Source of the DNA: a virus
Lineage: Duplodnaviria; Heunggongvirae; Uroviricota; Caudoviricetes
DNA length: 14,040 bases
Reading direction: 5' to 3' (one strand)
Virus record (IMG/VR): IMGVR_UViG_2681813230_000003
Shown here: in pieces, positions 1,180-14,040 of the stretch
Numbering within the stretch: the first letter of the stretch is position 1
How the letters are laid out: each line of letters opens with the position of its first letter
The notes under the pieces: generated by a model
Told to the model about the DNA's origin: nothing
Database searches by the model: none
What the model saw: only the letters and a program-made list of their open reading frames with translations
Translations under genes and position numbers: made by a program

Positions 1180-1602
1180 ATGTTTCTAAAGAGCGAACTG
1201 CTTGAATGCAACGGCAGCAGCGTCACATTGTTCCAGCTTTCGGCGCTTCAGCGTATTGAATACCTCGAATACCTGAAGCAGCTGGAGGCAGTTGAAGCCG
1301 GCGATTTCCAGGCGGCCATCACCCTCACCGTAAAAAGTGGGGCGTTCCTCGTGGCGATGTCGCTCTGGCACGGCCACGAACTGAAAGGCTCCCAGGGAGA
1401 AAATGCGGCGGCGGAAGTGGCAAAGATTCAGGATGAGGTCATGCAGTCATGGCCGACCGAACTGGTTGCCGAAGCGGAATATAAGGTGAAGCTCCTGTCC
1501 GGGATGATTGCGCCGGTAAGTGATGACCAGGCAGCGTCCGGCGAAGAAGGTAATGAACCCGCTGAACCCGTTACTGCGGAAAAGTCCTCGCCAGTGAGCT
1601 GA
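1180..1602 (+). CDS. G: Tail assembly chaperone G (lambda gpG-like)
   Basis: 140-aa ORF starting MFLKSE..., with GAFLVAMSLWH and a C-terminal ...PAEPV.A.K.S.VS tail, resembling lambda gpG. It lies directly upstream of, and overlaps, a -1 frame ORF resembling gpT. Confidence 0.88.
   Translation: MFLKSELLECNGSSVTLFQLSALQRIEYLEYLKQLEAVEAGDFQAAITLTVKSGAFLVAMSLWHGHELKGSQGENAAAEVAKIQDEVMQSWPTELVAEAEYKVKLLSGMIAPVSDDQAASGEEGNEPAEPVTAEKSSPVS
1578..1584 (+). other. Candidate -1 programmed ribosomal frameshift site (GGAAAAG) for the G-T fusion
   Basis: The heptamer G GAA AAG lies in the G frame 6 codons before the G stop, at the position aligned with lambda's G GGA AAG slip site. The -1 frame is open from here and reads GKVLASELNFAMKLAREFGRPDW..., paralleling the lambda G-T junction. 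Confidence 0.5.
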
Positions 1603-6263: not shown

Positions 6264-6838
6264 TGACCCGGATTGAGCTTGGCGGCGTGCTCGGGAAAAC
6301 ATTCGGTAAAATTCACCACCGCCTGATTTCCCGTGTAAGCGAGGCGGGAGTGGCGCTCGCAAAGACTATTCCGGGCTTTGAGCAGTTTATGATTTCCAGC
6401 CAGCGCCGTGGGCTCACATACTCCGTATTTAAGGGTAAAAAAAACATCGGTGTGGATGACCTCGGTTTCCCGGTTACCGGCGATGTTATCCGCATTGTCC
6501 CGGTAATCATCGGGAGTAAAAAAGCCGGTTTGATTCAAACTATCCTGGGCGCAGTATTAGTGATTGCATCGATCTGGATGCCAGGTCTGAGTATAGCTGC
6601 CAGCAATATGATGTTTGCTGCTGGTGCGTCCATAACGCTGGGGGGGGTAGTTCAGATGATATCCCCTCAGGCTACAGGGCTGGCCAGCAAACAGAGCTCA
6701 GATAACCGCGCCTCATACGCGTTCGGCGGAGTCACAAATACCGCCGCACAGGGTTACCCGGTTCCGCTCCTGTACGGCCGCCGGAGAATCGGCGGGGCAA
6801 TTATTTCTGCCGGAATTTATGTCGAAGATCAGCAGTAG
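6251..6838 (+). CDS. I: Tail tip assembly protein I (lambda gpI-like)
   Basis: 195-aa ORF overlapping the K stop. Conserved gpI-like segments are present (GGV.Q....P; PVPLLYG..R.G). The start is uncertain between ATG 6251 and ATG 6263 (TAATG overlap with the K stop). Confidence 0.8.
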   Translation: MQEVMTRIELGGVLGKTFGKIHHRLISRVSEAGVALAKTIPGFEQFMISSQRRGLTYSVFKGKKNIGVDDLGFPVTGDVIRIVPVIIGSKKAGLIQTILGAVLVIASIWMPGLSIAASNMMFAAGASITLGGVVQMISPQATGLASKQSSDNRASYAFGGVTNTAAQGYPVPLLYGRRRIGGAIISAGIYVEDQQ

Positions 6839-6857
6839 TTAACAAACCTTTTTACAA

Positions 6858-6880
6858 GCCACCTTCGGGTGGCTTTTTTT
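6858..6880 (+). terminator. Intrinsic-terminator-like hairpin between I and J
   Basis: GCCACC-TTCG-GGTGGC is a perfect 6-bp stem with a 4-nt loop, followed immediately by TTTTTTT, in the 53-nt I-J intergenic gap. Confidence 0.5.
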
Positions 6881-6891
6881 ATGGGCGCGAT

Positions 6892-9800
6892 ATGGCTAAA
6901 ACAATTACCGGACGAAAAGGCGGGAGCTCCAGTTCCCGAACTCCCACCGAACAGCCTGATGATCTGCAATCTGTAGCGAAGGCAAAGATCCTCGTTGCGC
7001 TTGGGGAAGGGGAGTTTGCTGGACAGCTCACCGGGAAGGATATCTACCTGGACGGAACGGCGCTGGAGAACGCCGACGGCTCCCAAAACTTCAGCGGCGT
7101 TACGTGGGAATTTCGTCCGGGGACTCAGGCACAAAAATATATTCAGGGTATCCCCGGCACCGAAAATGAAATCAGCGTGGGCACCGAAGTGTCAAGCACC
7201 ACCGGCTGGACACATACCTTTACCAACACGCAACTGTCAGCCGTTCGCCTGCGCCTCAAGTGGCCATCGCTTTTTAAACAGGAGGACGATGGCGATCTGG
7301 TTGGCTATTCAATTAACTACGCTATTGATCTGCAGACCGATGGCGGCACCTGGCAGACGGTACTTAATACCAGCGTAACCGGCAAGACAACTTCCGGCTA
7401 CGAACGCAGCCATCGCGTCGACCTACCGCAGGCAGGCAGCACATGGACGGTGCGCCTGCGTAAGCTAACAGCGGATGCCAACAGCGCGAAAATTGGCGAC
7501 ACGATGACGCTGCAGAGCTACACAGAGGTCATTGACGCCAAACTGCGTTATCCAAATACCGCGCTGCTGTACATCGAATTCGACTCAAGCCAGTTTAACG
7601 GCTCCATCCCGCAAATTTCCTGTGAACCGCGCGGACGCGTTATCCGCGTGCCGGATACTTACGATCCGGAAACCCGGACCTATAGCGGCACCTGGACGGG
7701 GGCGTTTAAGTGGGCATGGACGGACAATCCGGCGTGGATTTTTTACGATCTGGTGGTGAGCGACCGTTTCGGACTTGGCGACCGCCTGACGGCGGCAAAT
7801 ATTGATAAATGGACACTTTACCAGGTTGCGCAGTATTGCGATCAGCCAGTTCCCGACGGTAAAGGCGGTACCCGAACAGAACCCCGCTATACGTGCAACG
7901 TTTATGTGCAGGAGAGGAATGATGCGTATACCGTTTTGCGTGATTTTGCGGCCATATTCCGTGGCATGACGTACTGGGGCGGCGATCAAATCGTTGCGCT
8001 GGCAGATATGCCCCGTGATGTGGATTACAGCTACACCCGCGCTAACGTGGTTGACGGCCGCTTTACCTATTCTGGCAGCACCATTAAAAACCGCTATACC
8101 ACTGCGCTGGTTTCCTGGTCTGATCCGGGTAATGCCTACGCAGATGCGATGGAGCCGGTTTTTGAACAGGAGCTCGTCGCTCGGTTTGGCACAAACCAGC
8201 TCGAAATGACAGCCATTGGCTGTACCCGGCAGTCGGAGGCAAACCGTAAGGGACGCTGGGGGATTCTGACCAATAACAAGGATCGCATCGTATCGTTTGA
8301 TGTTGGCCTGGACGGCAACATTCCACAGCCTGGTTATATTATCGCGGTTGCCGATGATCTGTTATCCGGAAAGGTGATGGGAGGGCGTATCAGCGCGGTT
8401 AATGGTCGCGTTATCACGCTTGATCGTGATTCCGCAGCCGTTGCCGGAAGCCGTCTTATGGTTAACCTGCCGTCTGGCGCATCGCAGAGCAGGACGATAC
8501 AGAGCGTAAACGGTCGGGCTGTCACCGTGACCACGGCATACAGCGAAACACCGGCAGTCGAATCGGTATGGATTGTCGAATCCGACGAGCTTTATGCACA
8601 GCAATATCGTGTTATCAGCGTCGCTGATAATAACGACGGCACGTTTTCGATTACTGGTGCTTTTCACGATCCGGATAAGTATGCCCGTATCGATACCGGC
8701 GCCATCATCGACCAGCGGCCAATAAGTGTAATTCCGCCCGGTAATCAGTCCCCGCCAGCCAACATCACGATCAGTTCGTTTTCGGTTGTTCAGCAGAATA
8801 TCAGCGTCGAAACGATGCGCGTGAGCTGGGACCAGGCGCAGAACGCTATCGCCTATGAGGGGCAGTGGCGCCGCAACGACGGAAACTGGGTGAACATGCC
8901 TCGCAGCTCCACCACGTCATTTGACGTCCCGGGGATTTATGCCGGGCGCTACCTGGTGCGCGTGCGCGCAATTAATGCCGCTGAAATTTCCTCAGGATGG
9001 GGATATTCAGAAGAGAAGACACTGACCGGCAAAGTAGGTAATCCGCCTAAGCCAGTAGGATTCACAGCCACGGGCATTAACTGGGGGATTCGTCTTAACT
9101 GGGGTTTCCCGGCAAACACCGGCGATACGCTAAAAACGGAAATTCAGTACACTGCCAACAGTGACTTTTCAGATCCACTCTTGCTCTCAGACGTGCCTTA
9201 TCCATCTGCGGAATACACCCAGCTCGGCCTTAAAGCAGGGCAGGAATTCTGGTACCGCGCGCAGCTGGTCGACAGAACGGGTAACGAGTCCGGGTATACC
9301 GACTGGATCAGGGGGATGTCTAACGATAACGCCGATGATTATTTGGGCGATATCGCAGATGATTTCCTAACCTCTGCAGACGGAGAACGCCTGACTGGTG
9401 ACATCGATACCAACATTGAGGGAATACTGCAGAACGCCCTGGCGAACCATGGAACTGTTGAGCACCAGTGGGCACAATACGGAGAAGTGCGTGCCGATAT
9501 TCTGGTGGTTAAAACGACGATTGCTGAAGTTGATAATGCAATGGCCGAACTTTCGACGCAGGTGCAGGCGCAGATTGAGGATGTTACCGCTTCCCTGGAA
9601 GACAAGCTTACAGCTGTCGTAGATGCCTCCGGTGCTTCGGCAATCCACACCCTCAAAACGGGCGTGAGAATAAACGGGGTGATTTATAACGCCGGGATGT
9701 CTATTGCAGTGCTTGCAGAGGCAGGGAAGCCGGTAGTCACGCGGGTTGGTTTCAACGCTAACCAGTTCGTGCTGATGAGCGGCAGTGGTGATACCCAGTA

Positions 9801-10074
9801 TTCGCCGTTCGCGGTGGTAAACGGTCAGGTGTTTATCAGCTCAGCGTTTATTCAGGATGGCACGATCACCAATACCAAAATCGGTAACTTTATCCAGTCG
9901 AACAATTATGTTGCCGGCTCTGTTGGCTGGAAACTGGATAAGTCCGGGACGTTTGAGAACTACGGTTCGACAGCTGGGGAGGGAGCCATGAAGCAGACCA
10001 ACCAGACAATCAGCGTCAAGGATGGCAACAACGTTCTGAGAGTGCAGGTTGGCCGATTAACGGGGGTGTTCTGA
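6892..10074 (+). CDS. J: Tail tip / central tail fibre host-specificity protein (lambda gpJ-like)
   Basis: 1060-aa ORF. The N-terminal and central regions resemble lambda gpJ (YTEVID.K..YPNTAL; QVP..Y.P.TR.YSG.W.G.FK; YCDQ.VPDG.GGTEPR.TCN.Y). The C-terminal ~250 aa diverge from my recollection of lambda's LamB-binding region. Confidence 0.92.
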   Translation: MAKTITGRKGGSSSSRTPTEQPDDLQSVAKAKILVALGEGEFAGQLTGKDIYLDGTALENADGSQNFSGVTWEFRPGTQAQKYIQGIPGTENEISVGTEVSSTTGWTHTFTNTQLSAVRLRLKWPSLFKQEDDGDLVGYSINYAIDLQTDGGTWQTVLNTSVTGKTTSGYERSHRVDLPQAGSTWTVRLRKLTADANSAKIGDTMTLQSYTEVIDAKLRYPNTALLYIEFDSSQFNGSIPQISCEPRGRVIRVPDTYDPETRTYSGTWTGAFKWAWTDNPAWIFYDLVVSDRFGLGDRLTAANIDKWTLYQVAQYCDQPVPDGKGGTRTEPRYTCNVYVQERNDAYTVLRDFAAIFRGMTYWGGDQIVALADMPRDVDYSYTRANVVDGRFTYSGSTIKNRYTTALVSWSDPGNAYADAMEPVFEQELVARFGTNQLEMTAIGCTRQSEANRKGRWGILTNNKDRIVSFDVGLDGNIPQPGYIIAVADDLLSGKVMGGRISAVNGRVITLDRDSAAVAGSRLMVNLPSGASQSRTIQSVNGRAVTVTTAYSETPAVESVWIVESDELYAQQYRVISVADNNDGTFSITGAFHDPDKYARIDTGAIIDQRPISVIPPGNQSPPANITISSFSVVQQNISVETMRVSWDQAQNAIAYEGQWRRNDGNWVNMPRSSTTSFDVPGIYAGRYLVRVRAINAAEISSGWGYSEEKTLTGKVGNPPKPVGFTATGINWGIRLNWGFPANTGDTLKTEIQYTANSDFSDPLLLSDVPYPSAEYTQLGLKAGQEFWYRAQLVDRTGNESGYTDWIRGMSNDNADDYLGDIADDFLTSADGERLTGDIDTNIEGILQNALANHGTVEHQWAQYGEVRADILVVKTTIAEVDNAMAELSTQVQAQIEDVTASLEDKLTAVVDASGASAIHTLKTGVRINGVIYNAGMSIAVLAEAGKPVVTRVGFNANQFVLMSGSGDTQYSPFAVVNGQVFISSAFIQDGTITNTKIGNFIQSNNYVAGSVGWKLDKSGTFENYGSTAGEGAMKQTNQTISVKDGNNVLRVQVGRLTGVF

Positions 10075-10075
10075 T

Positions 10076-10378
10076 ATGGCTTATGGAATACAGACCTGGG
10101 ATGCTTCGGGAAACCCCAACAACTACGGAATCAAGCCCGTTTCCGTTGTTGGACGTATACAACTTGCCGCCGGACAAAACTCCGGCAGCTGGTCTTTCAC
10201 TGTACCCTCAGGAATGAAGGTCGGTTTTGCGCTCTCACTTGATGAAGGAGGTAACAGCGTAGGGAGGAGCATTGTCGCGTCAGGGAACACAATAACCGTA
10301 ACCGCAGCCTCTTCTGTGGGCCTGGGTAATTACCCGGCCTCTAAATGTGAGGTGGTCGTTTTCATGGAGAAAGCATAA
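10076..10378 (+). CDS. Hypothetical protein, J-distal; one copy of a WDASG-containing domain
   Basis: 100-aa ORF starting 2 nt after the J stop, with a G-rich SD-like stretch upstream. It shares a motif (G.xxxWDASG...SGSW) with the next ORF. No homologue recognised from memory. Confidence 0.55.
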   Translation: MAYGIQTWDASGNPNNYGIKPVSVVGRIQLAAGQNSGSWSFTVPSGMKVGFALSLDEGGNSVGRSIVASGNTITVTAASSVGLGNYPASKCEVVVFMEKA

Positions 10379-11052
10379 TGGCCGAATTTGGCGCGATGAT
10401 ATTAATGGATAACGGGAATCCCTTTGTAACGCCACAATCAACGCCTTTCTGTCTTTACGGGAAGTATACCTTCAATTCATCCGCGAATGGCAGTTCTCAG
10501 CAGGTTGCTCAAAATATCGCTTTAAACGCTGATTACCCAGTGATGGTTTTTATCAAAACCACCAATACAGCACAGCCCACTCCGGTTATGTCTTACAGGA
10601 ACGGCGGTAATGTGTATGTTGTTGGTGTTAATCCCTACAACCAAAGTTTCACTTTAACGGCGTACGTTTTTGCCATATTCCCGCAGATATTACCGAAATG
10701 GGGTTTGGCAATATGGGATGCGAGCGGAAAGCTTGTGTTAACTAATGAGTCCCGTGTGCTATCAGACCTGCAGACGGTTGGCACGCCTGGTGCAAACGGC
10801 GGGATAAATATTGACCAGACGCTGAGCGGGTCATGGGCCGTTGCACCTGCTCAGTTGGGTCAGACCATCATTGTGAATAATTCAACCCAGCCTCCGACTA
10901 TCTACACGATAAATGCTTATTCTTCATGCAGGTTTGACGGGGCCAATACGAGGATAAACGCAGGGGGGACCTCCACTGGGACAGGTTCACCTGTAGGGGG
11001 AACGAATACTGGCATTTCATTAACCGCCATAAATACAGCGGCCTATGATTGA
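10378..11052 (+). CDS. Hypothetical protein, J-distal; two copies of the same domain plus a Gly/Thr-rich C-terminus
   Basis: 224-aa ORF translationally coupled to the previous ORF (ATAATG overlap; GGAG 9 nt upstream). An internal GLAIWDASG...SGSW segment parallels the N-terminus of the upstream protein, and its own N-terminus has a GAMILMDNGNP variant. Lower GC than J. Confidence 0.55.
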   Translation: MAEFGAMILMDNGNPFVTPQSTPFCLYGKYTFNSSANGSSQQVAQNIALNADYPVMVFIKTTNTAQPTPVMSYRNGGNVYVVGVNPYNQSFTLTAYVFAIFPQILPKWGLAIWDASGKLVLTNESRVLSDLQTVGTPGANGGINIDQTLSGSWAVAPAQLGQTIIVNNSTQPPTIYTINAYSSCRFDGANTRINAGGTSTGTGSPVGGTNTGISLTAINTAAYD

Positions 11053-11089
11053 TTGATCGTTTTTAGCGATCAATAACATAATATTGATC
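11052..11089. repeat. AT-rich intergenic inverted/direct repeats carrying three GATC sites
   Basis: ATTGATCG (11052-11059) and CGATCAAT (11067-11074) form an 8-bp inverted repeat with a 7-nt spacer; a third ATTGATC lies at 11083-11089. GATC occurs at 11055, 11068 and 11086. Confidence 0.4.
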
Positions 11090-11163
11090 TATCCAATCAA
11101 TTATACCCACCAGAATTGTATTGGTATCGTCTAAGATACTGAATTCCTCTGGATACTATCAAA

Positions 11164-11397
11164 ATGAGAAAACTGATTATCTGCATGGCAGGCGCTGTCA
11201 TGCTTACAGGATGCGCTGGCGTAATTGAGAAACAGGAACCAGTTTGCAGCGGCACTGCAATCGTTGGCGGTCAGGAAACTACGGTTCAGATTTACGGTGT
11301 GCGTAAACAAAACAACCAGACGCAGTACCGGGCTGGATATCCTTTCAGCTGGCGCTGGGTAAGTGCGAATACATTTACCGAAACAACCTGCAAATAA
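11164..11397 (+). CDS. Small lipoprotein (moron); candidate superinfection-exclusion lipoprotein (Cor-like, speculative)
   Basis: 77-aa ORF with a lipoprotein signal peptide and lipobox (MRKLIICMAGAVMLTG|C). It is flanked by an AT-rich regulatory-looking region upstream and a hairpin plus T-run downstream, and sits between tail-tip and tail-fibre genes, where cor-type exclusion genes occur. The RBS is weak. Confidence 0.55.
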   Translation: MRKLIICMAGAVMLTGCAGVIEKQEPVCSGTAIVGGQETTVQIYGVRKQNNQTQYRAGYPFSWRWVSANTFTETTCK

Positions 11398-11418
11398 CCC
11401 ACTACGCTTAAACATAAA

Positions 11419-11440
11419 CCTCGCTCCGGCGGGGTTTTTT
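11419..11440 (+). terminator. Rho-independent terminator downstream of the lipoprotein gene
   Basis: CCTCGC-TCCG-GCGGGG stem-loop (6 bp including one G-U pair, 4-nt loop) followed by TTTTTT(A)TT, 22 nt after the stop codon. Confidence 0.6.
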
Positions 11441-11460
11441 ATTGCCCGAAAGGAGCGCAT

Positions 11461-12321
11461 ATGTCTGCAGGAACTATCACCCTGACAAACGGGTCCGCTG
11501 TTGTTGGCGGTGCCGGAACCTCATTCGCAACCGAACTCGCCGGAGGTGATTTCATTGTTTCGGCTGTGGGCGGTGTGCCCTACACGCTGCCGGTGAAAAC
11601 GGTCGACAGTAATACCCAGGTGACGCTGGTCAGCAACTTTACCGGGCCAACGCAATCCGGCGCTGCCTGGTCAGCCATCCCCCGCGTTGCTCTGAACATG
11701 GTCACTGCCGCGCTTGTGGCGCAAAGTGCTGAAGCCCTGCGTGGACTGAATTACGACAAACAGAACTGGCAGCAGGTTTACAGCGCCGCCGGAAACATCA
11801 CAGTGAAGTTGCCAGACGGCACCACCTTCACCGGCCCATCATGGAAATATCTGTCTGACAATATGGCAACCAAGAGCGGTGGGGCCGTACCTGTTAACCA
11901 GGGAGGGACCGGGGCGACAACCAGAGACGCCGCGCTGTCCAATCTGGGTATCACCTATGTCAGGTCAGGAACAAACTCCAGCGTGATAAAAATTGACGAT
12001 ATTTATCAAATGGATTTCCTCATAGGTGGCGGCATCGCAGTAGGAGCATACAACCCTCAGACAGTGGGAGGTATTACGTATTACACGCACTACTATAAAG
12101 TGCCGCTCCCCGTCGCATTACCTAACGGCATTATTATTGCCGTTGCGTCCATTTCAGGCGACAGATTTGGAAATCAAAACCCCGGATACAATGCAGACGT
12201 AAAAACATGCAGAGATAAAGATGATGGCACCGGGCTATCAACAACATATCTAACCGTCAGCGTTAAAACAGCTCAGACAGGCTGGGTCCCGTATTTTCAT
12301 GTAAGAGTGGTAGGGTATTGA
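11461..12321 (+). CDS. stf: Side tail fibre protein (Stf-like) with mosaic C-terminal receptor-binding region
   Basis: 286-aa ORF with AAGGAG 5 nt upstream. It contains a ...NQGGTGATTRDAALSNLGI motif of the kind I recall as conserved in phage tail fibres, and is followed directly by a Tfa-family chaperone gene. GC content drops sharply after about 12000. Confidence 0.65.
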   Translation: MSAGTITLTNGSAVVGGAGTSFATELAGGDFIVSAVGGVPYTLPVKTVDSNTQVTLVSNFTGPTQSGAAWSAIPRVALNMVTAALVAQSAEALRGLNYDKQNWQQVYSAAGNITVKLPDGTTFTGPSWKYLSDNMATKSGGAVPVNQGGTGATTRDAALSNLGITYVRSGTNSSVIKIDDIYQMDFLIGGGIAVGAYNPQTVGGITYYTHYYKVPLPVALPNGIIIAVASISGDRFGNQNPGYNADVKTCRDKDDGTGLSTTYLTVSVKTAQTGWVPYFHVRVVGY

Positions 12322-12322
12322 T

Positions 12323-12736
12323 ATGAAATATTTTTACAGCATCAGCACGCAGGGATTTTACCTCGATAACGGTATGCTGTCTGCGTATGAAGCGGCTGGC
12401 TCACTACCTGCGGACTTGCAAGAGATGAGCGAGGCTGACTATCTGGCGTTTTTTAATCCTCCCGATGGATTCGCGGGCATATTTGACGAGAAAGGACCGC
12501 GTATTGAACAACTGCCAGAACTGGACCCGCTGGCGATAGCAGAAAATCAACGGCGGCTGTTGCTGTCAGAAATCGCTCCGACTATTTCTGTATGGCAGAC
12601 AAAAATCCTGGTGGGCATGAAACTGAGTGATTCAGAAACCGCAGCCCTGCATGCCTGGTTGAGCTACAGTGATGCGCTGAACGCGCTGGATATCACCGTG
12701 CCAGATATTCAGTGGCCTGAAAAACCCGCAGCGTGA
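12323..12736 (+). CDS. tfa: Tail fibre assembly chaperone (Tfa family; lambda Tfa / Mu U-like)
   Basis: 137-aa ORF starting 2 nt after the stf stop. The C-terminus (LHAWLSYSDALNALDITVPDIQWPEKP) matches the conserved Tfa C-terminal signature (...W..Y...L..VD.S.APDIEWP..P in lambda Tfa). Confidence 0.8.
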   Translation: MKYFYSISTQGFYLDNGMLSAYEAAGSLPADLQEMSEADYLAFFNPPDGFAGIFDEKGPRIEQLPELDPLAIAENQRRLLLSEIAPTISVWQTKILVGMKLSDSETAALHAWLSYSDALNALDITVPDIQWPEKPAA

Positions 12737-12750
12737 TGTGATTTTCATTA

Positions 12751-12778
12751 ACCGGGCAGAAAAGGATGACTGCCCGGT
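12751..12778. terminator. Possible bidirectional terminator hairpin between convergent tfa and dinI-like genes
   Basis: ACCGGGCAG / CTGCCCGGT is a perfect 9-bp inverted repeat with a 10-nt loop, lying between the two convergent stop codons. No clean T-run follows on either strand. Confidence 0.3.
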
Positions 12779-12793
12779 GATGTGAATATGTAA

Positions 12794-13033
12794 TTAATCA
12801 GCAACCAGCCACATGTCAGATTCTTCAAACATCTCTTCAAGCATACGATTAAGCCGTTCTTTCTCTGTTTTCGTGCAGTTGCTGTTTAGCGCGTTCGCCT
12901 GCATCGGCTTTACCTTCACTTCGGCACCAGGGAAAATCTGGTGCACCCGCTTCGTCAGTTCGGCCAGAATGATCTCCCTGGCCCCTTCGAGCCCCTCAAC
13001 ATTTCGCTTGTCATAAACCAGTTCAACAAACAT
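12794..13033 (-). CDS. dinI: DinI-family protein (DNA-damage-inducible protein I-like)
   Basis: 79-aa product MFVELVYDKRNVEGLEGAREIILAELTKRVHQIFPG...EKERLNRMLEEMFEESDMWLVAD aligns over its full length with remembered E. coli DinI (81 aa; ...LSRRIQYAFPD...KEDKQRISEILQETWESADDWFVSE). SD AAGAGGA lies upstream. The longer ORF-track ORF (to 13420) is an antisense run-on. Confidence 0.85.
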   Translation of the reverse strand: MFVELVYDKRNVEGLEGAREIILAELTKRVHQIFPGAEVKVKPMQANALNSNCTKTEKERLNRMLEEMFEESDMWLVAD

Positions 13034-13082
13034 ACCGATCCTCTTATAAGTGAAAACTGCCTGTGCTTGATCTGTTTTCATA

Positions 13083-13111
13083 AAAATACTACTGTATATA
13101 CATACAGTCAA
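13083..13111 (-). promoter_or_regulatory. Sigma70-type promoter for the dinI-like gene (-35 TTGACT, 17-bp spacer, -10 TATTTT on the minus strand)
   Basis: The minus strand reads TTGACT (13111-13106), a 17-nt spacer, then TATTTT (13088-13083). The LexA box lies within the spacer and overlaps the -35, the classic SOS-promoter geometry. Confidence 0.55.
13092..13107. promoter_or_regulatory. LexA operator (SOS box)
   Basis: CTGTATATACATACAG differs at one position from the CTGT-(AT)4-ACAG consensus and has flanking TA...TCA. It sits in the 99-bp divergent region between the dinI-like gene and orf99. Confidence 0.8.
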
Positions 13112-13132
13112 TGAGCGAGTGAGGGTGCATTT

Positions 13133-13432
13133 ATGCCTCGTCAACCGGATATTCGTGCTGCTTTTATTGCGGCCATACAGCAAAACCCGAAGGGCTATCT
13201 CTGTCTGCATACAGACAAGTTCATCGCTGAACTGCAGGAGAGGAACTGGCATTTCAGTCAGGCGGATGCAAATACATGGATCGAGCGATACCAGCCGGAC
13301 TTCGCCGATAAGACGACAAACGAAAGCGAGAACCGGTACTGGATCCTGCGTAACATGGGGAGGGTTCTGAGGAGTTATCTTGCGATGCGCTATAGGTTTG
13401 CCCCATCCCTCCCAAACCAACCTTTTTTATAA
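13133..13432 (+). CDS. Hypothetical protein (99 aa), divergent from the dinI-like gene; possibly SOS-regulated
   Basis: ORF with SD GAGGG 8 nt upstream of the ATG and a start about 25 bp downstream of the LexA box. Composition looks protein-like; the C-terminus is basic/aromatic (YWILRNMGRVLRSYLAMRYRF). No homologue recognised from memory. Confidence 0.5.
   Translation: MPRQPDIRAAFIAAIQQNPKGYLCLHTDKFIAELQERNWHFSQADANTWIERYQPDFADKTTNESENRYWILRNMGRVLRSYLAMRYRFAPSLPNQPFL
13407..13432. other. Candidate hix/gix-like recombination (crossover) site upstream of the invertase gene
   Basis: CCCTCCCAAACCAACCTTTTTTATAA matches hixL (TTCTTGAAAACCAAGGTTTTTGATAA, from memory) at 16/26 positions, including the AAACC core, the central AA, the T-run and the terminal ATAA. 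It lies 60 bp upstream of the invertase start. The left half-site is poor and no partner was found in the window. Confidence 0.3.
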
Positions 13433-13460
13433 CCATCAAAAATCTGGTGATGCTTCGCCG

Positions 13461-13487
13461 TTTCTCCTGTTTTCATAACAGGAGAAA
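13461..13487 (+). promoter_or_regulatory. Perfect 11-bp inverted repeat (stem-loop) that includes the invertase Shine-Dalgarno
   Basis: TTTCTCCTGTT (13461-13471), loop TTCAT, AACAGGAGAAA (13477-13487). The right arm contains AGGAG (13480-13484), 7 nt upstream of the invertase ATG at 13492. Confidence 0.45.
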
Positions 13488-13491
13488 TCCC

Positions 13492-14040
13492 ATGATTTAC
13501 GGTTATGCCCGAGTATCAACAAACCACCAGGACACTGAATTGCAACTAACGGCGCTCAAGTCAGCGGGTTGTGAGAAAATTTTTGAAGAGCATGCCAGCG
13601 GGAGGAAATCGAATCGGCCGGTTCTAAAACGGCTGATCGCCACTATGCAGCCGGGGGATGAACTGGTGGTCTGGAAGCTGGACAGGATAGGCCGCAACGT
13701 TCTGCATGCGCTGTTGATGTTCCAGCAGTTACAGGAAAAGGGTATCAACTTCCGCAGTATTACCGATGGCGTGGATCTCAAAACAGCCAGCGGCCGCTAT
13801 AACTTTCGTAACATCCTTTCCGCAGCACAATATGAATCTGATCTTAATAGCGAACGTACCTTAGCAGGGCTGGCCGTAGCCAGGGCAAAAGGGCGAGTTG
13901 GTGGTCGCAGGCCTAAGTTCACGGATGAGCAATGGCGGGAAATGGGGGAGCGGATGGCAACCGGTGAATCACGACAAAGCGTATCAAAAACGTATGGAGT
14001 AGGGCTCTCAACTCTGTATAAAAAGTTTCCAGCTAGCTGA
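13492..14040 (+). CDS. Serine-recombinase DNA invertase (Hin/Gin/Pin/Cin family)
   Basis: 182-aa product MIYGYARVSTNHQDTELQ...GDELVVWKLDRIGRN...GINFRSITD...ERTLAGLAVARAKGRVGGRRPK...GVGLSTLYKKFPAS is highly similar across its whole length to remembered Gin/Hin, including the catalytic Ser in the RVST motif and the C-terminal HTH. Start chosen at the ATG with an AGGAG SD; the ORF-track start at 13447 lacks one. The stop is the last codon of the window. Confidence 0.92.
   Translation: MIYGYARVSTNHQDTELQLTALKSAGCEKIFEEHASGRKSNRPVLKRLIATMQPGDELVVWKLDRIGRNVLHALLMFQQLQEKGINFRSITDGVDLKTASGRYNFRNILSAAQYESDLNSERTLAGLAVARAKGRVGGRRPKFTDEQWREMGERMATGESRQSVSKTYGVGLSTLYKKFPAS

What the first reader, a model, noticed from the sequence alone, without database searches (positions are those of the whole stretch)
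10076..11052. Two translationally coupled J-distal proteins built from a repeated WDASG domain
Directly after the tail-tip gene J, where lambda carries lom and stf, sit two overlapping ORFs (ATAATG junction) with lower GC than the core tail genes. The 100-aa protein and the C-terminal half of the 224-aa protein share a clear paralogous segment (YGIQTWDASGNP...SGSW versus WGLAIWDASGKL...SGSW), and the N-terminus of the second carries a third, degenerate copy (GAMILMDNGNP). The second protein ends in a Gly/Thr-rich tail (GGTSTGTGSPVGGTNTG). I do not recognise the family. The position suggests tail-tip accessory or receptor-interaction proteins, but the function is open.
Basis: partly seen in the sequence, partly recalled or inferred. 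Interest (0 to 1): 0.6.

Follow-up and report, generated by a model that had tools for sequence, protein, structure and literature searches.

The report
Tail-tip receptor-binding pair after gene J
The two small overlapping genes after tail gene J most likely encode an adaptor and the receptor-binding protein that cap the phage tail tip and recognise the E. coli FhuA channel; this module is already described in recent phage papers, so the finding is real but mostly not new.

Summary
ORFs 10076-10378 (100 aa) and 10378-11052 (224 aa) overlap in TAATG, follow J by one base and have lower GC. They are 100% identical to phage HK225 gp22/gp23, the homologues of phi80, N15, HK022 and T1 genes. The repeat is real but is a ~30-residue N-terminal "arm" ([YWF]G-x4-D-x2-G...P), present three times; column-shuffle z-scores are 12-17. 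As a whole, the 100-aa protein is a paralogue of the N-terminal half of the 224-aa protein (96.6% probability), not its C-terminal half.

Every carrier with a determined receptor that I checked uses FhuA, and the FhuA-blocking lipoprotein Cor is the next gene.

The link to FhuA is already published. My additions are the triple arm, the homology between the FhuA and LptD types, and a three-arms-on-trimeric-J docking hypothesis. Nothing has been tested experimentally for this family.

The parts
9454..10074 (+). C-terminal ~200 residues of the central tail fibre J (whole gene 6892-10074). This is the trimeric tip on which the two downstream proteins are proposed to dock. The last ~45 residues (9937-10071) vary with the type of downstream receptor-binding cassette.
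   Evidence: Pfam finds FNIII-A_GpJ, Phage-tail_3 and Phage_Tail_Tip in J. J residues 855-1056 align with DEV gp56 206-427 up to the C-termini (29% identity, E 4e-10). The last ~45 aa are conserved among the FhuA-type phages HK225, phi80 and T1 but differ in the LptD-type phage JeanPiccard.
10076..10378 (+). gp22-like 100-aa protein, the proposed adaptor. It has an N-terminal arm (residues 1-30, nt 10076-10165) followed by a 7-strand beta sandwich (residues 23-99).
   Evidence: The target region 10076-11052, which includes this gene, is 100% identical to HK225 F845_gp22-gp23. phrog_557 matches at E 3e-36. The AF2 model has pLDDT 85, with residues 1-20 at low confidence. The family is highly conserved (mean column identity 82%). 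It is a full-length paralogue of the gp23 N-terminal module. DEV gp55 has the same size and position (99 aa).
10366..10380 (+). Coupling junction: GGAG (10366-10369), gp22 stop TAA (10376-10378) and gp23 ATG (10378-10380).
   Evidence: Read directly from the sequence. The same overlapping stop/start arrangement occurs in T1, DEV and the remote loci L008, L010 and L011. In L009 the genes abut without overlapping.
10378..11052 (+). gp23-like 224-aa protein, the proposed FhuA-binding receptor-binding protein. Layout: arm 1 (residues 1-30, nt 10378-10467); N sandwich (25-99); arm 2 (105-135, nt 10690-10782); C module (136-224, nt 10783-11049).
11053..11437 (+). Companion cor cassette: an AT-rich gap with a promoter-like site (11053-11082), the cor lipoprotein gene (11164-11397) and a terminator (11416-11437). 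Cor blocks FhuA in the lysogen or infected cell.
   Evidence: NCBIfam lamb_exclu_cor matches at E 9e-42 and phrog_1119 at E 7e-37. Promoter and terminator scan. The phi80 record annotates a cor promoter at the same place. The gap has GC 0.315.

Best explanation
The two genes encode the distal cap of the central tail fibre.

gp23 (224 aa) is the receptor-binding protein that recognises the outer-membrane ferrichrome transporter FhuA. gp22 (100 aa) is a structural adaptor that helps fasten gp23 to the C-terminal tip of the trimeric J fibre.

Both proteins are built from one ancestral module: a ~30-residue N-terminal arm followed by a small beta sandwich. gp22 has one module and gp23 has two.

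My inference is that one gp22 and one gp23 together offer three arms to the three J chains. This would turn a threefold fibre into a single asymmetric receptor-binding head. The variable faces of the two gp23 sandwiches (residues 31-90 and 161-210) would contact the FhuA loops.

The genes are made as part of the late tail operon. They are translated directly after J and are coupled to each other through the overlapping stop/start. The neighbouring Cor lipoprotein, separately transcribed, blocks the same receptor.

Shown here: the anatomy, the paralogy, the fold and the remote homology to receptor-binding proteins backed by experiment, the conserved gene order, and the association with FhuA.

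Inferred: presence in the virion, direct FhuA binding, the 3:1:1 stoichiometry, and arm-to-J docking.
For: (1) Fold and homology.
- The gp23 model is confident (pLDDT 90.8).
- The gp23 family profile aligns with the DUF6453 LptD-RBP family at 92% probability (E 6e-7, 101 columns).

(2) Same operon as phage DEV.
- DEV has gp56 (J-like), gp55 (99 aa) and gp54 (223 aa) with overlapping stops and starts.
- gp54 vs the gp23 family: 95.4% probability, E 1.7e-8.
- gp56 vs the J C-terminus: E 4e-10.
- gp55 starts with MSYGFRFYDANGN, against MAYGIQTWDASGN in gp22.
- In DEV, gp54 and gp55 are essential. gp54 suppressor mutations restore growth on an lptD mutant. gp54 is in virions by mass spectrometry. 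AlphaFold3 places one gp54 and one gp55 on a gp56 trimer (PMC12892993).

(3) Receptor association.
- Carriers include T1, phi80, N15 and HK022 (FhuA-dependent per PMC13164509), JLBYU37, JLBYU60 and Teewinot (PMC10373560), and BASEL Bas03, Bas05, Bas12 and Bas15 (all FhuA in the S5 table).
- The LptD phage JeanPiccard has no homologue.
- gp22 and gp23 occur in 346 and 349 phage records with the same genus breakdown.

(4) Conservation pattern.
- gp22 is much more conserved than gp23 (82% vs 62% mean column identity).
- Distant gp23 relatives match only profile positions 1-128.
- DEV suppressor positions 37 and 85 align by hhalign, and 181 and 186 fall by residue number alone (223 vs 224 aa), in the variable segments of gp23.

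(5) Arms as the docking element.
- The arms have low or lower pLDDT in the monomer models yet are the most conserved parts.
- In Oekolampad RBP the three segments missing from the cryo-EM density (1-25, 113-142, 206-234; PMC12685063 Methods) are where I find its three arm motifs.
- The last ~45 residues of J co-vary with the cassette type.

(6) Not membrane proteins.
- Neither protein has a signal peptide or hydrophobic segment.
- There is no promoter between J and gp22.
Against: - No experiment exists for this family. I found no virion proteomics, binding assay or knockout.
- The T1 cryo-EM study could not resolve the J C-terminus or anything beyond it.
- The adaptor homology between gp22 and DEV gp55 rests on 14 residues (E 0.002).
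- gp22 vs the first module of DUF6453 is not significant (E 0.02).
- The arm is a simple beta-hairpin pattern that J's own last hairpin also shows, so some resemblance could be convergent.
- Residue numbering of the Oekolampad RBP in the paper (309 residues mentioned) and in the GenBank CDS (321 aa) may differ slightly.
- One paper reports a Tempevirinae species that carries the large protein and Cor without the small protein. As I read its ambiguous sentence, that phage uses BtuB. If so, neither the FhuA link nor the need for gp22 is absolute.
Confidence: 0.75

Rival explanations
1. The two proteins are membrane-associated helpers of Cor. They would act in superinfection exclusion at FhuA and would not be virion parts. 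This is the reading of the KanT1 paper and is implied by the PHROG names.
For: They always sit next to cor in FhuA-dependent phages, and PMC13164509 proposes this role. [quoted passage not shown]
Against: - There is no signal peptide, lipobox or hydrophobic stretch: maximum Kyte-Doolittle (19-residue window) is 1.14 and 1.18, against 2.02 for Cor.
- The genes are fused to the late J operon, whereas cor has its own promoter-like site and terminator.
- Remote relatives keep J, the small protein and the large protein but lack cor.
- Homologues in DEV are essential, and the large one (gp54) is found in virions.
- The best structural match is a solved receptor-binding protein.
Confidence: 0.04
2. 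gp22 forms a homotrimeric Ig-like tip on J, resembling the lambda J receptor-binding domain. This tip would be an alternative to gp23, giving two virion sub-populations with different receptors (first hypothesis of Matusiak et al. 2025).
Against: - The same study found that the large protein was always preferred at the tip.
- gp22 is the more conserved partner, which is not expected of a receptor-binding surface.
- The two genes co-occur almost perfectly and are coupled.
- In DEV both are essential, and the model has one copy of each.
Confidence: 0.08
3. gp22 is an assembly chaperone for gp23 or for the J tip and is absent from the finished virion. gp23 alone is the cap.
For: Small genes next to fibre genes are often chaperones. 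In DEV the presence of gp55 in virions was uncertain by mass spectrometry. One Tempevirinae species reportedly lacks the small protein.
Against: - gp22 is a structural paralogue of the gp23 N module, arm included.
- LIT1 orthologues of both proteins were reported as structural.
- AlphaFold3 places DEV gp55 in the complex with ipTM 0.8.
Confidence: 0.1
4. J itself binds FhuA, as lambda J binds LamB. gp22 and gp23 would bind something else, such as LPS or a co-receptor, or would only trigger DNA release.
For: Older papers, including the FhuA-loop study, treat the J-like protein as the receptor-binding protein. The J tip co-varies with receptor type.
Against: - The J tip is conserved from E. coli FhuA phages to Pseudomonas phage DEV, which uses LptD.
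- That fits a docking role rather than receptor specificity.
- Modelling of the J tip on FhuA gave poor confidence.
- The variable partner is gp23.
Confidence: 0.05

Closest known systems
Receptor-binding fibre of Pseudomonas phage DEV: gp56 (J-like), gp55 and gp54 (PMC12892993, 2026)
   Same: - Same gene order, with overlapping stop/start codons.
- Almost identical sizes: 99 and 223 aa against 100 and 224 aa.
- The fibre C-terminus is homologous (E 4e-10).
- The large protein is homologous (95.4%).
- The small protein begins with the same arm.
- The experimentally supported roles, adaptor plus receptor-binding protein, are the ones proposed here.
   Different: - DEV is a podovirus, and its fibre sits beside a tail plug.
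- Its receptor is LptD, not FhuA.
- No cor follows the operon.
- Sequence identity of the large proteins is low (13% in the hhalign alignment), and the C modules do not align.
DUF6453 (PF20051) LptD-binding proteins of small siphophages: Oekolampad RBP (PDB 9RPT), Rtp44, Bas01/Bas02
   Same: - Encoded directly after the J homologue and paired with an exclusion lipoprotein.
- Profile homology of gp23 54-165 with residues 155-260.
- Same arm motif and a similar C-terminal strand.
   Different: - A single chain of 311-321 aa with three arms, against a split 100 + 224 aa.
- Encoded on the opposite strand to J in Bas02 and Bas18.
- The Pfam model does not detect gp23.
- It binds LptD.
Dhillonvirus JLBYU60 YP_010740311 / YP_010740312, the 'Ig-like' and 'hand-like' proteins of Matusiak et al. 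2025
   Same: Members of the same two families (68% and about 59% identity), in a FhuA-dependent phage. They are predicted in silico to cap the spike and bind FhuA.
   Different: That work is modelling only. It did not report the internal repeat, the paralogy of the two proteins, or the link to DUF6453.
Phage T5 pb5 with Llp
   Same: A monomeric receptor-binding protein at the end of a trimeric central fibre binds FhuA. A small lipoprotein then blocks FhuA from the periplasmic side, and Cor resembles Llp.
Lambda J C-terminal receptor-binding domain, and lom/stf at the same map position
   Same: The position is directly after J, and the job is recognition of an outer-membrane protein.
   Different: Lambda carries the binding domain as part of J and binds as a trimer. 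Lom is an Ail/Lom beta barrel, and neither protein here matches it.

Membership tests
J-distal receptor-binding fibre module (DEV gp56-gp55-gp54 type) | Gene order of J-like fibre, then a ~100-aa gene, then a ~225-aa gene, with touching or overlapping stop and start codons | tested here: met
   The J stop lies one base before the gp22 ATG, and gp22 and gp23 overlap in TAATG. In DEV the genes are 99 aa and 223 aa with 4-nt overlaps.
J-distal receptor-binding fibre module (DEV gp56-gp55-gp54 type) | Large protein homologous to DEV gp54 | tested here: met
   hhalign gives 95.4% probability, E 1.7e-8, over 124 columns. A one-sequence hmmsearch gives E 9e-10. Only the N module and arm 2 align.
J-distal receptor-binding fibre module (DEV gp56-gp55-gp54 type) | Small protein homologous to DEV gp55 | tested here: inconclusive
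   Only the first 14 residues align (50% identity, E 0.002). Size and position are the same. DEV gp55 fits into the diverse small-protein alignment, which matches gp23 N at 96.6%.
J-distal receptor-binding fibre module (DEV gp56-gp55-gp54 type) | Fibre C-terminus homologous to the gp56 C-terminus | tested here: met
   BLASTP aligns gp56 206-427 with J 855-1056 at 29% identity, E 4e-10, running to both C-termini.
J-distal receptor-binding fibre module (DEV gp56-gp55-gp54 type) | Both proteins essential, present in virions, and the large one contacts the receptor | not testable with these tools
   This needs genetics, proteomics and binding assays. I found no such data for this family.
DUF6453 / PF20051 LptD-binding RBPs | Match to the Pfam model | tested here: not met
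   No PF20051 hit for gp23 at E <= 1, whereas every LptD-type homologue carries it.
DUF6453 / PF20051 LptD-binding RBPs | Same fold and detectable remote homology | tested here: met
DUF6453 / PF20051 LptD-binding RBPs | Single chain with three arm-plus-sandwich modules | tested here: not met
   gp23 has two modules. A third is supplied, if at all, by the separate gp22. gp22 vs module 1 is not significant (E 0.02).
FhuA-associated RBP locus of small siphophages and lambdoid phages (Maffei 2021; Wietzorrek 2006 as cited) | Locus directly after J, followed by cor, in phages shown to need FhuA | tested here: met
   cor is the next gene. Carriers with known receptors use FhuA. An LptD phage lacks the pair. 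FhuA dependence of this particular phage was not tested.
Outer-membrane or membrane-associated proteins (PHROG 557 / 425 labels) | Signal peptide, lipobox, transmembrane helix or beta-barrel signature | tested here: not met
   The N-termini are MAYGIQTWDASG and MAEFGAMILMDN. Maximum hydropathy is 1.14 and 1.18, against 2.02 for Cor. There is no Ail/Lom or OMP Pfam hit. The models are soluble beta sandwiches.
H-type lectin fold (SLL-2, Helix pomatia agglutinin) | Six-stranded sandwich forming sugar-binding trimers | tested here: inconclusive

The most novel reading that the evidence does not exclude
The cassettes downstream of J that the literature calls unrelated would belong to one superfamily. 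This is supported here at least for the FhuA type and the LptD type, and for the DEV module in podoviruses. The superfamily would be built from a repeated 'arm plus sandwich' module.

The three arms would be the universal plug that docks an asymmetric receptor-binding head onto the threefold J tip. They come from one chain in DUF6453, and from a 1 + 2 split in gp22/gp23 and in DEV gp55/gp54. This would resolve the 3:1 symmetry mismatch.

If so, the last ~45 residues of J plus the cassette would form a portable unit for re-targeting phages between essential outer-membrane proteins.
Probability: 0.4. Interest if true: 0.6.

Novelty: new member of a known kind. Interest (0 to 1): 0.4.

Why it matters
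phi80, T1, N15 and HK022 are classic FhuA phages, yet the protein that actually touches FhuA has never been shown experimentally. Public annotation still calls these two proteins membrane proteins, and a 2026 paper found no structural match and guessed an exclusion role.

Tying gp23 to a solved LptD-binding protein and to the genetically validated DEV gp54 gives a concrete, testable assignment. It also corrects the annotation of several hundred phage and prophage genes.

If the three-arm docking idea holds, it explains how a single-copy receptor-binding head sits on a trimeric fibre. It would also define the boundaries of a swappable cassette for engineering receptor specificity.

Tried and rejected
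- Pfam, NCBIfam and PDB sequence searches of both proteins gave nothing usable.
- BLASTP of the two proteins, and hhalign with the first shallow alignments (Neff 1.8-3), saw only a 10-12 residue motif. Significance came only after the 50%-representative search supplied diverse relatives.
- Global profile alignment did not support homology of the N and C sandwiches of gp23, nor of gp22 with the C sandwich.
- gp22 against each DUF6453 module was not significant, so the 'gp22 is the detached first module' idea is unproven.
- No ~100-aa gp22-like proteins were evident in the gp23 profile search; the short hits were not inspected.
- Literature searches for virion proteomics or a FhuA-RBP structure of this family found none. 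Wietzorrek et al. 2006 is not held. The first literature search was mostly noise.
- I looked for inverted repeats that would tie the downstream invertase to the fibre genes and found none.
- Multimer prediction and coordinate-level superposition of the two models were not possible with the tools available.

Full report
**What is there**

The window is the tail-gene region of a lambdoid phage. It runs from the tube protein, chaperones and tape measure through the M, L, K, I and J homologues, then the two ORFs in question. After them come cor, a side tail fibre with its assembly protein, dinI and an invertase.

The stretch 10076-11052 is 100% identical to phage HK225 (NC_019717 18732-19708) and 85-86% identical to phi80. 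In phi80 the genes are called gp22 (100 aa) and gp23 (224 aa). The rest of the window is only 96.7% identical to HK225.

GC is 0.515 and 0.477, against 0.53-0.58 for most core tail genes (gene M is 0.506).

**Is the repeat real?**

Simple comparison is weak. BLASTP aligns only the WDASG decamer (E 0.028), and profile comparison with the first, shallow alignments gives 12 columns.

A profile search of 1.84 billion representative proteins then returned 122 clusters of the 224-aa family. Nearly all are 205-241 aa long.

In every member the pattern [YWF]G-x-x-hydrophobic-x-D/N-x-x-G ... P-hydrophobic occurs twice, at the N-terminus and again around residue 107.

With this diverse alignment, hhalign gives:
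- gp23 N-terminus vs gp23 107-139: 91% probability, E 1e-6.
- gp22 vs the C half of gp23: 88%, 29 columns.
- gp22 vs the N half of gp23: 91.5%, 93 columns.

Sixty column-shuffled controls never exceeded a score of 16, against observed scores of 33-35 (z 12-17).

I then added T1, DEV and four remote small proteins to the gp22 alignment. The match to the gp23 N half rose to 96.6%, E 7e-10, over 95 columns.

The repeated unit that can be demonstrated is a ~30-residue arm. The 100-aa protein as a whole is a paralogue of the N-terminal module of the 224-aa protein, not of its C half.

**Structure**

Both AlphaFold2 models are confident: gp23 has pLDDT 90.8 and pTM 0.86, and gp22 has pLDDT 85. Both are all-beta.

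gp22 and gp23 residues 1-100 have the same layout: about 20 low-confidence N-terminal residues followed by seven strands.

The top three matches of gp22 (3wmp_A, 9rpt_C, 2ccv_A) are also among the top seven of gp23.

A Foldseek search of predicted viral structures finds 19 clusters with the gp23 fold (E <= 1e-3). They come from phages of Xanthomonas, Acinetobacter, Pectobacterium, Proteus and Pseudomonas, including a Litunavirus.

**Homology to experimentally characterised proteins**

*The LptD type.* The LptD-type protein of phage JeanPiccard (311 aa) belongs to Pfam DUF6453. The Pfam model does not detect gp23.
- Profile against profile gives 92% probability, E 6e-7, over 101 columns (gp23 54-165 vs 155-260).
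- The gp23 C module matches module 3 at 90%.
- The LptD-type proteins carry the arm three times.
- In Oekolampad RBP the arms lie at about 1-25, 113-142 and 206-234. These are the three segments the authors had to model because they were missing from the cryo-EM density of the isolated RBP-LptDE complex (PMC12685063 Methods).

*Phage DEV.* Pseudomonas phage DEV has an operon of gp56 (J-like), gp55 (99 aa) and gp54 (223 aa) with overlapping stops and starts.
- gp54 matches the gp23 family at 95.4%, E 1.7e-8.
- gp56 206-427 matches J 855-1056 to the very end (E 4e-10).
- gp55 begins MSYGFRFYDANGN.
- In DEV both small genes are essential. gp54 carries the suppressor mutations that restore growth on an lptD mutant and is found in virions.
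- AlphaFold3 puts one gp54 and one gp55 on the gp56 trimer, with gp55 read as an adaptor (PMC12892993).

**Context and distribution**

- gp22 and gp23 homologues occur in 346 and 349 phage records with the same genus breakdown.
- T1 has the same trio, followed by a reverse-strand 75-aa gene at cor's position.
- Four remote relatives also have a small gene (92-138 aa, arm at its start) directly before the large one. In the two longer contigs (L009, L010) a J-like gene precedes the pair. Cor is absent or replaced by a Lom-like gene.
- Carriers with experimentally known receptors all use FhuA: T1, phi80, N15, HK022, JLBYU37/60 and Teewinot, and Bas03, Bas05, Bas12 and Bas15.
- The LptD phage JeanPiccard has no homologue.
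- The last ~45 residues of J are conserved among the FhuA-type phages from different families but differ in JeanPiccard, even though T1 and JeanPiccard are otherwise closer.
- Cor, the FhuA-blocking lipoprotein, is the next gene. It has its own promoter-like site and terminator.

**How it most likely works**

The large protein is the FhuA-binding head and the small one an adaptor. Both cap the J trimer.

- The arms are the most conserved parts of the proteins, yet they are poorly ordered when the proteins are alone.
- The sandwich faces 31-90 and 161-210 are the variable parts.
- Those faces include the positions equivalent to the DEV suppressor mutations 37, 85, 181 and 186. Positions 37 and 85 are placed by the hhalign alignment; 181 and 186 only by residue number, because the C modules do not align.

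From this I infer that three arms, one from gp22 and two from gp23, engage the three J chains. Black et al. reached a similar general conclusion for LptD binders, namely that the conserved surfaces serve tail assembly.

Direct FhuA binding, virion presence and stoichiometry remain inferences.

**Rivals**

- The membrane or exclusion reading (PHROG names; PMC13164509) is contradicted in three ways: there is no signal or hydrophobic segment, the genes belong to the J operon, and the homologues point the other way.
- A gp22 homotrimer as an alternative tip and a chaperone-only role for gp22 cannot be excluded, but both fit the conservation and paralogy data less well.

**Comparison with what is known, and novelty**

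The link between this locus and FhuA has been in the literature since 2006 and 2021. In-silico capping models were published in 2025. A 2026 preprint lists a FhuA-specific RBP family with accessory proteins at this locus but calls the four receptor-specific families unrelated.

The finding is therefore a member of a known kind. What this analysis adds:
- The statistically supported triple arm.
- The paralogy of the two proteins.
- Fold and profile homology joining the FhuA type, the LptD type (DUF6453, 9RPT) and DEV gp54.
- The coincidence of the arms with the unresolved segments of 9RPT.

All of these are computational results.

Noticed in passing
window 11053-11437: cor looks like a separate transcription unit. 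An AT-rich gap (GC 0.315) holds a promoter-like TTGATC-18-CATAAT at 11053-11082. The lipoprotein gene is at 11164-11397 and a strong terminator at 11416-11437. The phi80 record annotates a cor promoter at the same place.
   Followed up: partly
window 6820-6855 and the whole window: Only the 977-bp target region is 100% identical to HK225. The rest of 6346-14040 is about 96.7% identical. The window also lacks ~264 nt that HK225 carries between genes I and J (its gp20 plus a terminator). The window therefore comes from a close relative, and the RBP cassette may be a recently shared segment.
   Followed up: partly
window 10076-11052, and public annotation of homologues: [quoted passage not shown] They have nonetheless spread to hundreds of phage records and misled at least one 2026 paper.
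   Followed up: yes
phage records MG065636, MG065679, MG065641, MG065637 (Campylobacter phages A13a-A16a) and ON843697 (Pseudomonas phage Motto): These 22-50 kb records, labelled as Campylobacter or Pseudomonas phages, carry T1-like gp22/gp23 at 62-69% identity. They look like Drexlerviridae coliphages, so the host labels are doubtful.
   Followed up: no
window 10017-10071 (J residues 1042-1060); L007, L008, L009, L010: J's last hairpin (ISVKDGNNVLRVQVG) has the same pattern as the arm motif (hydrophobic-x-hydrophobic-x-D-x-x-G-x-hydrophobic). It is conserved in DEV gp56 and in remote J homologues. It may pair with the arms, or it may show that the pattern is a generic hairpin.
   Followed up: partly
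database proteins P0267 (337 aa) and P0101 (188 aa): These are chimeric proteins that join J-derived sequence directly to the C-terminal part of gp23 (from residue 52 or 128). They are probably internal deletions in decaying prophages.
   Followed up: no
window 13447-14040, 11000-14040: A Hin-like DNA invertase gene runs off the end of the window. No inverted repeat of 14 nt or more is found between the fibre genes and the invertase, so there is no sign here of an invertible fibre segment.
   Followed up: partly
window 1180-1602 and 1611-1931: Two adjacent ORFs sit between the tube and tape-measure genes, in the position of the lambda G/GT tail chaperones. These are normally joined by a programmed -1 frameshift. 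The slippery site was not examined.
   Followed up: no
L003 19730-20895 and L005 4655-5844: In the LptD-type phages JeanPiccard and Oekolampad, the RBP and its exclusion lipoprotein are encoded on the strand opposite to J. The homologous FhuA-type genes are co-directional with J and coupled to it. The same superfamily is therefore expressed in two different ways.
   Followed up: no
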